Source: a virus (taxonomy: Duplodnaviria > Caudoviricetes). From it: 64,000 nt of DNA. Under the pieces are notes generated by a model. That model saw only the letters and a program-made list of their open reading frames with translations. It searched no databases and had not been told where the DNA came from. The stretch covers positions 7,333 through 71,332 of the IMG/VR virus record IMGVR_UViG_3300009664_000002. One strand, written 5' to 3'. The position numbers and the translations under genes were made by a program. Positions 30,789 through 32,374 of this stretch are shown one piece after another (position 1 is the stretch's first letter; every line of letters begins with the position of its first letter).

Positions 30789-30815
30789 TGTAACATTTTA
30801 TATCTTTGCATCGTA
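30789..30815 (+). promoter_or_regulatory. Overlapping ECF-like and TAnnTTTG promoters for leader 4
   Basis: tgtaacattttatatctttgcatcgta. Confidence 0.7.
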
Positions 30816-30856
30816 TTTAGAAAAAATAGTAATTATAATTTAAAATAAAAATAACT

Positions 30857-30970
30857 ATGAAAACGATATTAAAAAATAATTTAACTTCCTTTTCGACTAA
30901 TAATCGAAATAATATCACAATATCAATTTTTTGTGGTAGTGGAAGAAATATTGTCGGGTTTATGGTTTGA
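30857..30970 (+). CDS. Attenuator leader peptide 4 (MKTILKNNLTSFSTNNRNNITISIFCGSGRNIVGFMV)
   Basis: 31 of 37 residues are T/I/N/S/F/R/C/G/M, the amino acids of downstream cluster 4. Confidence 0.85.
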   Translation: MKTILKNNLTSFSTNNRNNITISIFCGSGRNIVGFMV

Positions 30971-30997
30971 TTTATTTTAATATAAAGAAATGACAAT

Positions 30998-31029
30998 AAA
31001 CCCGAATCATAAAAAATTCGGGTTTTTTT
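30998..31029 (+). terminator. Attenuator terminator 4
   Basis: aaacccgaat/attcgggttt hairpin with U-tract; tcgggtttat (30954-63) is a perfect complement of ataaacccga (30996-31005). Confidence 0.88.
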
Positions 31030-31056
31030 GTTCTTTGAAATTTTGGGTCTTTATTT

Positions 31057-31138
31057 GTCAGGATACCTAAGTGGTTGAAAGGGATGGTCTGCAAAACCAT
31101 TTGCAATGCACACGTGGGTTCGAATCCCACTCCTGACT
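31057..31138 (+). tRNA. tRNA-Cys(GCA)
   Basis: gtcagga/tcctgac, U73, atggt-ctgcaaa-accat. Confidence 0.92.
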
Positions 31139-31144
31139 CAAATT

Positions 31145-31222
31145 CGGCAGATAACCAGCATGTCTGATACACATGACTAAGGTAATTGGTTGAAAATATG
31201 GGTTCAAATCCCATTCTGCCGA
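31145..31222 (+). tRNA. tRNA-Ile(GAT), non-canonical (D-arm relocated)
   Basis: cggcaga/tctgccg, catgt-ctgatac-acatg, T-arm; 7-nt 5' linker and 22-nt post-anticodon segment containing aattggtt. Confidence 0.78.
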
Positions 31223-31228
31223 CATTTT

Positions 31229-31313
31229 GGAAGATAGCGTCCAATGGTGGGCAAGCGGACTTGAAATCCGTGCCATCGGTTAAACGATGAGGGTTCGATT
31301 CCTTTATCTTCCT
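31229..31313 (+). tRNA. tRNA-Ser(TGA)
   Basis: ggaagat/atcttcc, gcgga-cttgaaa-tccgt, long variable arm. Confidence 0.9.
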
Positions 31314-31323
31314 CTAAATACTA

Positions 31324-31411
31324 GGTGAAATGGGTGAGTGGTTGAAACCAGCAACCTGCTAAGTTGCCGTACATATTCAATGTACCGAGAGTTCGAATCT
31401 CTCTTTCACCG
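31324..31411 (+). tRNA. tRNA-Ser(GCT)
   Basis: ggtgaaa/tttcacc, G73, gcaac-ctgctaa-gttgc. Confidence 0.93.
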
Positions 31412-31664
31412 CAAATATCTTAAACTGCAATTTAAGATATTTCTCACACAATACTACTATAAACAATTAAATTGTTGCAGCAATTTATTGATGTTGAGTG
31501 TGTGAATCTCTGCTTTGCATAAGATGCTACATTTTAATATTCAGTGTATTTTAATGTATTTCATATGTTTAATAACTTATTAAATAACATTATTTTCGGA
31601 GATATTATAGTGTTTGAAATAACACAAAATGAATGAGTATGAGGCTCATAGCAGAGATTATTTT

Positions 31665-31735
31665 GGAACGATAACACAATGGTAGTGTGCTTGGCTGAAG
31701 ACCAAGAAATACAGGTTCAATTCCTGTTCGTTCCA
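31665..31735 (+). tRNA. tRNA-Phe(GAA)
   Basis: ggaacga/tcgttcc, cttgg-ctgaaga-ccaag. Confidence 0.92.
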
Positions 31736-31740
31736 CAATT

Positions 31741-31813
31741 GCAGGTGTAGCATAATGGATAATGCATCTGTCTTCTAAACAGATTATTGGTGGTTCGAAT
31801 CCACCCACCTGTT
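31741..31813 (+). tRNA. tRNA-Arg(TCT)
   Basis: gcaggtg/cacctgt, tctgt-cttctaa-acaga, A20. Confidence 0.9.
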
Positions 31814-31880
31814 CTAAAATAAAGTAATTTTTTTGTAAGAAATGTTAATAATAATCATATTAAAAATAATTCAAATAATT

Positions 31881-31953
31881 GCAGGTGTAGCATAATGGTT
31901 AGTGCATCTGCCTTCCAAGCAGAACTTTGGTGGTTCGAATCCACTCACCTGCT
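31881..31953 (+). tRNA. tRNA-Gly(TCC)
   Basis: gcaggtg/cacctgc, U73, tctgc-cttccaa-gcaga. Confidence 0.93.
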
Positions 31954-31961
31954 CAAATTAA

Positions 31962-32036
31962 TGACCCGTAGCGTAAATTGGTTAACGCAGTTCACTCATA
32001 ATGAAAAGACTAAGGGTTCAAGTCCCTTCGGGTCAA
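31962..32036 (+). tRNA. tRNA with CAT anticodon (Met, or Ile2 if lysidine-modified)
   Basis: tgacccg/cgggtca, ttca-ctcataa-tgaa. Confidence 0.88.
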
Positions 32037-32042
32037 CTAAAT

Positions 32043-32115
32043 GCACAGATGGCTGAATGGTTTAAGCACTTGACTGTTAATCAAGGTGATATAGGTTCGA
32101 ATCCTATTCTGTGCG
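32043..32115 (+). tRNA. tRNA-Asn(GTT)
   Basis: gcacaga/tctgtgc, G73, cttga-ctgttaa-tcaag. Confidence 0.93.
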
Positions 32116-32127
32116 CTAATTAATAAT

Positions 32128-32200
32128 GCCAGATTAACTCAATTGGTAGAGTGCCATACTTGTAATATGGAAGTTAAGAGTTCGAATCTCTTATCTGGCT
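32128..32200 (+). tRNA. tRNA-Thr(TGT)
   Basis: gccagat/atctggc, ccata-cttgtaa-tatgg. Confidence 0.93.
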
Positions 32201-32222
32201 CAAAATTTCATATTAAATAGAA

Positions 32223-32295
32223 ACACCTGTAGCATAATGGATAATGCACCTAACTACGGATTAGGTCAATGGGGGTTCGATTCCCTTCAGGTGTT
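32223..32295 (+). tRNA. tRNA-Arg(ACG)
   Basis: acacctg/caggtgt, cctaa-ctacgga-ttagg. Confidence 0.92.
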
Positions 32296-32301
32296 CAATT
32301 T

Positions 32302-32374
32302 GCAGGTATCGTATAAAGGCTTATTATGTCGGCTTGCCATGCCGAAGATGACAGTTCGAATCTGTCTATCTGCT
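32302..32374 (+). tRNA. tRNA-Gly(GCC)
   Basis: gcaggta/tatctgc, tcggc-ttgccat-gccga. Confidence 0.92.

What the first reader, a model, noticed from the sequence alone, without database searches (positions are those of the whole stretch)
30789..32374. Attenuator unit 4: one leader sensing nine amino acids over twelve tRNAs
Leader codons 10-32 (TSFSTNNRNNITISIFCGSGRNI) are 23 consecutive residues drawn only from the downstream tRNA amino acids. All nine (C, I, S, F, R, G, M, N, T) are present, 31 of 37 overall. tcgggtttat in the last codons is a perfect 10-nt complement of the terminator 5' side. This is a multivalent attenuator far broader than ilv/thr examples.
Basis: partly seen in the sequence, partly recalled or inferred. 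Interest (0 to 1): 0.92.

Follow-up and report, generated by a model that had tools for sequence, protein, structure and literature searches.

The report
Codon-matched attenuator gating phage tRNA genes
A 37-codon mini-gene in front of twelve tRNA genes of a giant uncultured phage is written in the codons those tRNAs read and is wired to a terminator/antiterminator switch. The phage therefore most likely transcribes these tRNAs only when decoding of those codons is slow, a control that is textbook for amino-acid genes but that I found in no paper for tRNA genes.

Summary
The leader ORF at 30857-30970 has 31 of 37 residues from the amino acids of the downstream tRNAs, in an unbroken run over codons 10-32. 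It samples all 12 downstream anticodons (random expectation 7.2, P=0.0004). Its last codons hold a perfect 10-nt complement (30954-30963) of the terminator's 5' side (30996-31005). tRNA-Cys starts 24 nt after the U-tract, so the array can only be reached by read-through.

The design is not chance. It recurs at three other arrays in this window and at homologous arrays in about 25 related 320-360 kb phages. Where relatives partition their tRNAs differently, the leaders change to match: own set is the best match in 7 of 7 classes. The match exists only in the ORF's reading frame. The antiterminator strands covary with their own terminators (permutation p=2e-4).

Best reading: ribosome-mediated attenuation giving demand-driven, self-limiting tRNA transcription. 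No experiment supports it yet.

Corrections: the CAU tRNA is probably the AUA-reading Ile2, so eight amino acids rather than nine. One "tRNA" (Ile-GAU) is non-canonical. Codons 29-32 lie too close to the antiterminator to be good sensors.

This scan has already reported the same design on other phage DNA. Six literature searches and two genome papers gave no published description.

The parts
30788..30815 (+). Promoter-like motif TTGTAACA-N16-CGTA, containing a TAnnTTTG box (TATCTTTG, 30801-30808)
   Evidence: The motif occurs 8 times in the window against 0.01 expected. A TAnnTTTG box lies 24-77 nt upstream of nearly all homologous leaders in relatives. Promoter function is inferred, not shown.
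30857..30970 (+). Leader ORF, 37 codons plus TGA
   Evidence: It is conserved as an open frame in relatives. P(open by chance) is 0.026.
30884..30952 (+). Codons 10-32: an unbroken run of 23 codons for amino acids of the downstream tRNAs (the candidate sensing codons; codons up to about 28 are best placed)
   Evidence: The footprint argument comes plus the textbook ribosome footprint.
30954..30963 (+). Antiterminator 5' strand (TCGGGTTTAT), inside codons 33-36, ending 7 nt before the end of the stop codon
   Evidence: (z=3.0, p=0.01 against shuffles).
30996..31005 (+). Antiterminator 3' strand (ATAAACCCGA), overlapping the first 8 nt of the terminator's 5' arm
   Evidence: the partial transcript folds into this helix, -16.8 kcal/mol, z=-3.1.
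30998..31032 (+). Intrinsic terminator: 10-bp stem, 8-nt loop, T7 tract
   Evidence: hairpin -12.1 kcal/mol.
31057..31139 (+). tRNA-Cys(GCA), first gene of the array, 24 nt after the T-tract
31145..31222 (+). Non-canonical tRNA-like gene with a GAU (Ile) anticodon loop
   Evidence: ARAGORN and Rfam both miss it. It has acceptor, anticodon and T arms. It sits where relatives carry a canonical tRNA-Ile(GAT).
31229..31412 (+). tRNA-Ser(UGA) 31229-31314 and tRNA-Ser(GCU) 31324-31412
31413..31664 (+). 252-nt structured spacer inside the array, function unknown
   Evidence: -59.9 kcal/mol, z=-4.4. The terminator scan finds none here.
31665..31954 (+). tRNA-Phe(GAA) 31665-31736, tRNA-Arg(UCU) 31741-31814, tRNA-Gly(UCC) 31881-31954
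31962..32037 (+). tRNA with CAU anticodon, called Met by ARAGORN, probably Ile2 (AUA reader)
   Evidence: It is orthologous to the array CAU tRNAs of G003 and G004. In 6 of 6 genomes the array holds either a UAU-Ile or this CAU tRNA, never both.
32043..32375 (+). tRNA-Asn(GUU) 32043-32116, tRNA-Thr(UGU) 32128-32201, tRNA-Arg(ACG) 32223-32296, tRNA-Gly(GCC) 32302-32375

Best explanation
Unit 4 is a ribosome-mediated (leader-peptide) transcription attenuator that controls a 12-gene tRNA array.

How it would work:
- Transcription starts at the promoter-like box near 30788-30815 and the 37-codon leader is translated as it is made.
- The leader holds at least one codon for each of the 12 downstream anticodons.
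- If any of these codons is decoded slowly because its charged tRNA is scarce, the ribosome stalls upstream of 30954.
- The strand 30954-30963 then pairs with 30996-31005, the terminator hairpin cannot form, and RNA polymerase reads into tRNA-Cys and the rest of the array.
- If all codons are read quickly, the ribosome reaches the stop codon at 30968 and covers the antiterminator strand, which ends 7 nt before the end of the stop codon.
- The terminator 30998-31025 then forms and transcription ends 24 nt before the first tRNA.

Because the products of the array are the molecules that read the leader, the circuit is a negative feedback that matches phage tRNA supply to decoding demand. It has OR logic over 8-9 amino acids.

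Shown from sequence and comparison: the layout, the codon and anticodon matching, the frame specificity, the alternative helices and their covariation, and the conservation.

Inferred: translation of the leader, the promoter, coupling of ribosome and polymerase, the direction of the response, and the physiological signal.
For: (1) Layout. A promoter-like box, then the ORF, then a 10-nt complement to the terminator's 5' side, then the terminator, then tRNA-Cys 24 nt after the T-tract.

(2) Match to the array.
- 30 of 36 residues against an expected 48%, p=1.4e-5.
- 12 of 12 anticodons sampled, P=0.0004. Rare codons are used, such as CGA (1.0 per 1000), ACG, TCG and ATC.
- The match exists in frame 0 only: 0.83 against 0.44 and 0.39. 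Across 35 non-redundant leaders it is 0.55 against 0.21 and 0.26, Wilcoxon p=2.5e-7.

(3) Same design elsewhere in the window. It recurs at the Pro/His/Gln, Asp/Glu/Val/Leu and Lys/Tyr arrays. Each leader is enriched only for its own set.

(4) Relatives.
- Complete relatives of 322-357 kb keep the array order. Of the sixteen arrays that have a detectable upstream terminator and a qualifying ORF, every one carries a matched leader.
- Of 38 array starts with a detectable terminator, 37 have a 15-70-codon ATG ORF ending 10-50 nt before it.

(5) Regrouped arrays.
- L067 and L061 split the array into Thr/Arg/Ile and Asn/Phe/Ile/Ser/Gly/Leu/Cys units, and each has its own matching leader.
- L093 groups His with Phe/Cys/Thr/Leu, and its leader does the same.
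- In a 7x7 cross-test, each leader's own set scores best in 7 of 7 rows and 7 of 7 columns.

(6) The switch.
- Complementarity to the terminator's 5' arm has mean z=2.5, and 22 of 39 units reach p<0.05. The 3'-arm control gives z=0.05 and 1 of 39.
- Own arm against foreign arms gives permutation p=2e-4.
- Several pair types occur at the flanking positions of the helix.
- The transcript cut before the 3' arm folds into the antiterminator at -16.8 kcal/mol, z=-3.1. The terminator hairpin is -12.1 kcal/mol.

(7) Geometry.
- Matched codons make up 0.81-0.82 of positions 14 to 5 codons before the antiterminator strand.
- This drops to 0.35 in the last 4 codons before the strand and 0.30-0.39 within and after it. 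The gap is the size of a ribosome's downstream footprint.

(8) Access to the array. The median distance from terminator to first tRNA is 22 nt, so the arrays depend on read-through.
Against: - There are no expression, end-mapping or mutational data.
- I identified no conserved anti-antiterminator or pause hairpin (the 1:2 helix of trp-type attenuators). The state without translation is therefore unclear.
- In this window's unit the matched run continues right up to the antiterminator strand. The only AGA codon (codon 30) and the GGA codon (codon 29) would stall a ribosome that partly covers the strand.
- In the Lys/Tyr class the antiterminator strand ends 16-27 nt (mostly 25-27) before the end of the stop codon. 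That is mostly beyond the reach of a terminating ribosome.
- Unit 1 has a promoter-like motif between its terminator and its tRNAs, which would bypass the switch.
- Amino-acid starvation would trigger the switch yet could not be relieved by more tRNA.
- The many related units are not statistically independent. The independent support rests on seven compositional classes.
- Transcription-translation coupling in the presumed Bacteroidota host is not established.
Confidence: 0.75

Rival explanations
1. The terminator is a constitutively leaky stop, or the end of an upstream transcript, and the small ORF is incidental. The codon match only reflects that phage genes in general use codons served by phage tRNAs.
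For: The phage carries tRNAs for all common AT-rich codons. By composition alone, 4 of 295 small ORFs in the window, the leader among them, reach 83% in the unit-4 set.
Against: - The match is array-specific: own set is best in 7 of 7 classes. Off-diagonal tests in the window are not significant.
- The match is frame-specific.
- It includes rare codons such as CGA.
- It follows regrouping of the tRNAs in L067, L061 and L093.
- ORFs are open in 37 of 38 units although stop codons are frequent.
- The antiterminator covaries with its terminator.
Confidence: 0.06
2. The leader is not translated. The RNA senses tRNAs directly by codon-anticodon pairing, as a T-box does, or it is a separate small RNA.
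For: The regulated genes are tRNAs, as T-box ligands are. No Shine-Dalgarno sequence is evident, though Bacteroidota generally lack one (from memory).
Against: - There is no T-box or other Rfam match. The only hit is a sub-threshold Thr_leader match over the terminator: 28.1 bits against a gathering score of 55.
- The matched triplets are in one frame, between an ATG and a stop, in all units.
- Leaders begin Met-Lys with A-rich 5' regions.
- Matched codons end one ribosome footprint before the antiterminator strand.
Confidence: 0.07
3. Translation-coupled control with the opposite logic. A closely following ribosome suppresses termination, as in pyrBI, so fast decoding increases tRNA transcription (positive feedback).
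For: No anti-antiterminator was found. Coupling-type attenuators need only an ORF and a terminator.
Against: - The stop codon lies 28 nt before the terminator stem in unit 4 and 17-37 nt before it in the 18 units tabulated. That is too far for a terminating ribosome to block the hairpin.
- This logic does not explain the conserved, covarying complement of the 5' arm.
Confidence: 0.05
4. The ORF encodes a functional micro-peptide, and its composition is selected for the peptide's own activity.
For: The residue order is conserved within a class, for example the Ser-Arg-Asn-Gly and Gly-Arg-Asn motifs in the Cys-type leaders.
Against: - Seven unrelated peptide classes each mirror their own tRNA set.
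- The C-terminal parts are constrained at the nucleotide level by pairing with the terminator.
- No Pfam or other family applies to such peptides.
Confidence: 0.03

Closest known systems
Multivalent leader-peptide attenuators of the ilvGMEDA/ilvBN and thr operons of enterobacteria (textbook; from memory)
   Same: A short translated leader enriched in codons for more than one amino acid. Mutually exclusive antiterminator and terminator helices. A stall at any regulatory codon gives read-through.
   Different: Those sense 2-3 amino acids and control biosynthetic enzymes. This unit samples 12 anticodons (8-9 amino acids), mostly once or twice each rather than in long runs, and controls tRNA genes in a phage. 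I recognised no 1:2 pause helix.
trpL, hisL, leuL and pheL attenuators
   Same: The same parts list, and a stop codon placed so that a terminating ribosome masks the antiterminator strand (7 nt here).
   Different: They are monovalent, with tandem runs of one codon. Their output relieves amino-acid shortage, whereas here the output is the decoder itself.
pheM leader of the pheST operon (phenylalanyl-tRNA synthetase) of E. coli (from memory)
   Same: Leader-peptide attenuation applied to a component of the translation apparatus rather than to biosynthesis.
   Different: It regulates a synthetase protein, senses one amino acid and is cellular.
T-box riboswitches
   Same: They read the state of a specific tRNA and switch between a terminator and an antiterminator.
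   Different: T-boxes bind uncharged tRNA directly, without a ribosome, and have conserved specifier-loop and T-box motifs. There is no such match here, and the frame-specific ORF points to ribosomal reading.
Earlier unpublished notes of this scan on other phages (a ~330-kb phage, phiCbK-like Caulobacter phages, a marine Bacteroidota phage)
   Same: A promoter, a codon-matched mini-ORF, a terminator and then a tRNA array. In phiCbK itself I saw a 45-codon ORF plus terminator before the Pro/Lys/Leu/Ala/Ser array, and a 32-codon ORF plus terminator before the Phe/Val/Ile/Gln array.
   Different: They lie in different phage lineages and hosts with unrelated leader sequences. Those are AI notes, not publications.

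Membership tests
Leader-peptide (ribosome-mediated) transcription attenuators | Short ORF with start and stop codons between the promoter and the regulated genes | tested here: met
   ORF 30857-30970. It is open in 37 of 38 homologous units. Chance of a 37-codon open frame is 0.026.
Leader-peptide (ribosome-mediated) transcription attenuators | Leader enriched in codons whose decoding reports on the regulated pathway | tested here: met
   30 of 36 residues, p=1.4e-5. 12 of 12 anticodons, P=0.0004. Frame-specific. Array-specific, 7 of 7.
Leader-peptide (ribosome-mediated) transcription attenuators | Intrinsic terminator between the leader and the regulated genes, with no promoter after it | tested here: met
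   Terminator 30998-31032. 24 nt to tRNA-Cys. Family median is 22 nt.
Leader-peptide (ribosome-mediated) transcription attenuators | Antiterminator helix mutually exclusive with the terminator | tested here: met
   A 10-bp perfect helix, 30954-63 with 30996-31005. Family z=2.5 against a control of 0.05. Covaries with its own terminator, p=2e-4.
Leader-peptide (ribosome-mediated) transcription attenuators | Stop codon placed so that a terminating ribosome masks the antiterminator strand, with regulatory codons far enough upstream to leave it free | tested here: met
   The strand ends 7 nt before the end of the stop codon. Matched codons fall from 0.82 to 0.35 in the last four codons before the strand across the family. 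In this window codons 29-32 are too close. In the Lys/Tyr class the strand is 16-27 nt (mostly 25-27) from the stop.
Leader-peptide (ribosome-mediated) transcription attenuators | Anti-antiterminator or pause helix (1:2) that synchronises the ribosome and the polymerase | tested here: inconclusive
   Folds show AT-rich helices in the ORF, but I did not test whether any is conserved.
Leader-peptide (ribosome-mediated) transcription attenuators | Read-through depends on leader translation and on the supply of charged tRNA | not testable with these tools
   This needs reporter or in vitro assays.
Leader-peptide (ribosome-mediated) transcription attenuators | Regulated genes are amino-acid biosynthesis, transport or synthetase genes (all described members known to me) | tested here: not met
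   The regulated genes are 12 tRNA genes. This is the point of novelty.
Rfam Thr_leader (RF00506) | Score at or above the family's gathering threshold | tested here: not met
   28.1 bits against 55, covering only the terminator region 30972-31032.
T-box riboswitch | Match to the T-box covariance model (specifier loop, T-box sequence) | tested here: not met
   No match at the gathering threshold or at E<=1.

The most novel reading that the evidence does not exclude
The leaders act as codon-by-codon sentinels of the infected cell's decoding capacity. They would serve as an inducible counter-defence. When host anticodon nucleases (PrrC, PARIS and retron-type tRNases) or host shut-off deplete particular tRNAs, the matching leader stalls and the phage switches on only the array that replaces them. 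This would make phage tRNA arrays a regulated anti-immunity system rather than a constitutive codon-usage aid.
Probability: 0.25. Interest if true: 0.95.

Novelty: new variant of a known kind. Interest (0 to 1): 0.85.

Why it matters
Phage tRNA genes have been discussed for decades as aids to codon usage and, more recently, as replacements for tRNAs destroyed by host defences. How their expression is controlled is essentially unstudied.

A leader that is read by the products of the genes it controls would be a direct decoding-speed feedback on tRNA supply. It would extend a textbook mechanism to a new class of target.

It would also be the most multivalent attenuator known to me: 12 anticodons in one 37-codon leader.

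The design recurs in several arrays per genome and in many huge-phage genomes, and I saw look-alike ORF-terminator units in the cultured Caulobacter phage phiCbK. The idea is therefore directly testable.

It gives a sequence rule for annotating transcription units of tRNA arrays, and a natural set of parts for codon-specific translation sensors.

Tried and rejected
- Wider sampling of units 1 and 2: the search for related loci with the 301-aa protein between them found no relatives. The 582-aa upstream protein gave one locus, and I did not use it further.
- Cultured relative: Bacteroides phage DAC23, the nearest cultured hit to the ribonucleotide reductase, has only a single tRNA-Lys in the 43 kb around that gene and no array. 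It is not a usable model.
- Folding with a ribosome mask: equilibrium folding of the full leader with a masked 30-nt ribosome site always kept the terminator and allowed unrealistic pairs across the ribosome. It was uninformative, so I used the co-transcriptional truncation instead.
- Known RNA families: Rfam gave no family for the leader. The weak Thr_leader hit covers only the terminator, and there is no T-box.
- Alignment: the MAFFT alignment of 14 Cys-type units (A1) misregisters several terminator arms. I did not run the count of structure pairs on it and used register-anchored tallies and permutation tests instead.
- Nucleotide composition as the cause of the match: rejected by the frame test.
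- Earlier scan notes: look-ups by relatives and by sequence returned nothing relevant.
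Full report
**What the window is.** The window is most of a 71-kb IMG/VR virus record that CheckV rates 24% complete. It has 23.6% G+C. ARAGORN finds 22 tRNA genes and a tmRNA, all on the + strand, and Rfam agrees. The gene at 27091-30417 is a ribonucleotide reductase with an intein. It has about 80 close relatives in IMG/VR contigs, several of them complete 322-357 kb genomes with terminal repeats. The nearest GenBank records are uncultured huge phages of 462-635 kb, and Bacteroides phages match at 37% identity. TAnnTTTG boxes precede most units. From memory, this box is the -7 element of Bacteroidota promoters, so a Bacteroidota host is likely. That is an inference.

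**The observation.**
- The ORF runs from ATG 30857 to TGA 30968-30970, 37 codons.
- TCGGGTTTAT (30954-30963, codons 33-36) is the exact complement of ATAAACCCGA (30996-31005). That stretch overlaps the first 8 nt of the 5' arm of a terminator at 30998-31025, with a T7 tract to 31032.
- tRNA-Cys begins at 31057.
- The array holds 11 canonical tRNAs. It also holds a tRNA-like gene with a GAU anticodon loop (31145-31222) that neither ARAGORN nor Rfam recognises. That gene lies where relatives have a normal tRNA-Ile(GAT).

**Is it chance?**
- Against the window's own protein composition the set is expected at 48%. Observed is 30 of 36, p=1.4e-5. With only ARAGORN's calls (no Ile) it is 25 of 36, p=1e-4.
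- Composition alone is not extreme among 295 small ORFs of this AT-rich window: four, the leader among them, reach 83%.
- The 23-residue run is the longest in all six frames; the next is 18.
- At codon level every one of the 12 anticodons is sampled (random mean 7.2, P=0.0004). Both Arg boxes, both Ser boxes and three Gly codons are used, including rare codons such as CGA at 1.0 per 1000.
- The match exists only in the ORF's frame: 0.83 against 0.44 and 0.39.
- A 37-codon open frame has probability about 0.026 at this composition.

**The other arrays in the window.** The same layout precedes three more arrays.
- Pro/His/Gln: leader 16460-16525.
- Asp/Glu/Val/Leu, followed by an Ala-like tRNA and then Trp: leader 18456-18554.
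- Lys, followed by a Tyr-like tRNA: leader 25807-25884.
- Each leader is enriched for its own set (p=0.0016, 2.3e-5, 0.068, 1.4e-5) and for none of the others.

**Relatives.**
- Four complete relatives and one fragment keep the array order Pro/His/Gln, Asp/Glu/Val/Leu/Ala/Trp, Leu/Leu/Met, Lys/Tyr, (Thr)Cys/Ile/Ser/Phe/Gly/Asn/Thr/Arg/Gly.
- In these five records, sixteen arrays have a detectable upstream terminator with a qualifying short ORF before it. All sixteen ORFs are enriched in the amino acids of that array.
- All 35 non-redundant leaders are enriched. Mean z is 3.6 for own sets against 0.4 for foreign sets.
- Of 62 distinct array starts, 38 have a terminator my simple scan detects. 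Of those, 37 have a 15-70-codon ATG ORF ending 10-50 nt before it. Starts without one are mostly lone Leu, Met, Ser or CUA-anticodon tRNAs.
- These units share ancestry, so pooled p-values overstate independence.

**Regrouped arrays give the independent evidence.**
- L067 and L061 split the big array into a Thr/Arg/Ile unit and an Asn/Phe/Ile/Ser/Gly/Leu/Cys unit. Each has its own leader rich in exactly those residues. The Thr/Arg/Ile leader samples 6 of 6 anticodons, P=0.0002.
- L093, a more distant clade, groups His with Phe/Cys/Thr/Leu. Its leader mixes His, Thr, Leu, Cys and Phe, and carries a 9-nt complement of its own terminator.
- In a 7x7 cross-test of the seven compositional classes, each leader's own set is the best match in every row and every column.

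**The switch.**
- In 18 of 18 units tabulated from the window and five relatives, a 5-11 nt segment (7-11 nt in all but one) in the 3' part of the ORF is complementary to the terminator's 5' arm.
- Against dinucleotide shuffles the mean z is 2.5, and 22 of 39 units reach p<0.05. For the 3' arm, used as control, z is 0.05 and 1 of 39.
- The segments fit their own terminators better than those of other units, permutation p=2e-4.
- The helix changes with the terminator. CGAGTCTTT pairs with AAAGACTCG in G003. GAATGGGG pairs with CCCCATTC in the G004 Pro/His/Gln unit. CGGGTTCT pairs with AGAACCCG in L025 and L038.
- For unit 4, the transcript cut before the terminator's 3' arm folds into the antiterminator at -16.8 kcal/mol, z=-3.1. 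The full transcript folds into the terminator. The terminator hairpin alone is -12.1 kcal/mol.

**Geometry.**
- Across the family, matched codons make up 0.81-0.82 of positions 14 to 5 codons before the antiterminator strand. They make up only 0.35 of the last four codons and 0.30-0.39 within and after the strand. A ribosome covers about 12-15 nt downstream of its A site (textbook). Stalls at matched codons therefore leave the strand free.
- In unit 4 a ribosome at the stop codon would cover 30954-30963.
- The terminator lies a median 22 nt before the first tRNA. There is no space for a separate promoter, so the arrays depend on read-through.

**Mechanism proposed.** This is classical ribosome-mediated attenuation with OR logic over many codons. 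Slow decoding of any sampled codon frees the antiterminator and opens the array. Fast decoding carries the ribosome onto the antiterminator strand and the terminator forms. The array's products read the leader, so the loop is self-limiting. What triggers it in nature is inferred, not shown. Candidates are a mismatch between AT-rich phage codons and the host tRNA pool, decay of host tRNAs after shut-off, or cleavage by host anticodon nucleases.

**Corrections and caveats.**
- The CAU tRNA (31962-32037) is orthologous to array CAU tRNAs of G003 and G004. Its anticodon arm resembles Ile(GAU) tRNAs.
- In six of six genomes the array has either a UAU-Ile or this CAU tRNA, never both. It is therefore probably the AUA-reading Ile2. 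The leader has two ATA codons at positions 4 and 22, and its only internal ATG is codon 36, inside the masked zone.
- The count is thus probably eight amino acids.
- AGA (codon 30) and GGA (codon 29) are the only well-upstream samples of Arg-UCU and Gly-UCC, and both sit at the edge of the footprint.
- I found no conserved pause helix.
- The Lys/Tyr class has its strand 16-27 nt (mostly 25-27) from the stop.
- Unit 1 has a bypass promoter-like motif.

**Is it known?**
- Rfam has no family for it.
- Six full-text searches found no description of leader-peptide attenuation of tRNA genes.
- The phiCbK genome paper (PMC3556154) and the huge-phage paper (PMC7162821) mention neither attenuation nor leaders.
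- This scan has already reported the same design on other phage DNA, including phiCbK-like phages.
- Following that lead, I looked at phiCbK itself. A 45-codon ORF plus terminator precedes its Pro/Lys/Leu/Ala/Ser array, and a 32-codon ORF plus terminator precedes its Phe/Val/Ile/Gln array. I inspected these by eye and ran no statistics on them.

**Verdict.** It is a new variant of a known mechanism.

Noticed in passing
window 31413-31664: A 252-nt spacer inside the tRNA array folds far better than shuffles (-59.9 kcal/mol, z=-4.4). It begins with a perfect 12-bp hairpin directly after tRNA-Ser. It has no Rfam family and its function is unknown.
   Followed up: partly
window 31145-31222 and 26024-26118: Two tRNA-like genes, with GAU (Ile) and GUA (Tyr) anticodon loops, have normal acceptor, anticodon and T arms but no regular D arm. 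ARAGORN and Rfam miss the Ile-like gene, and ARAGORN misses the Tyr-like one. Both sit where relatives have canonical tRNAs.
   Followed up: partly
window 18976-19052 and 16860-16975: Two further tRNA-like sequences are missed by ARAGORN. One is Ala-like with a UGC anticodon loop and draws a weak tmRNA-model hit. The other is longer, has a T arm, and lies between tRNA-Gln and the second tRNA-Pro.
   Followed up: partly
window 10249-50275 (8 sites, e.g. 16590, 19674, 23262, 34076): The motif TTGTAACA-N15-16-CGTA occurs 8 times against 0.01 expected. It resembles ECF-sigma promoters. It precedes leaders, the tmRNA and several protein genes, and in unit 1 it lies after the terminator.
   Followed up: partly
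window 27091-30417: A ribonucleotide reductase large subunit interrupted by an intein (Pfam Intein_splicing at residues 327-541). Relatives match in two pieces, which suggests the intein is present in some and absent in others.
   Followed up: no
window 19743-20097: A phage tmRNA gene with its own promoter-like motif and no leader ORF. tRNA-Leu(UAA) at 20540 also lacks a leader.
   Followed up: no
window 46409-47239: A Thg1-family tRNA-His guanylyltransferase homologue (Pfam E=4e-25) in the same genome as a phage tRNA-His.
   Followed up: no
G001-G005 (e.g. L067 near 21.5 kb; L087:12577-12649): Relatives carry a tRNA with a CUA anticodon (amber-suppressor type) 0.3-3.3 kb downstream of the last array. 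None was found in this window. Every leader stop codon visible in the printed ORF ends is TAA or TGA.
   Followed up: no
L087:326-353: In some relatives a second terminator-like hairpin sits between the first tRNA (Thr-GGU) and tRNA-Cys of the array, with no ORF of its own.
   Followed up: no
L179 (phiCbK record 46801-53000): Caulobacter phage phiCbK has ORF-plus-terminator units before two of its tRNA arrays, and a Tyr-like (GUA) tRNA-like sequence ahead of the third array. The genome paper states that no phiCbK-like phage has a Tyr tRNA.
   Followed up: partly
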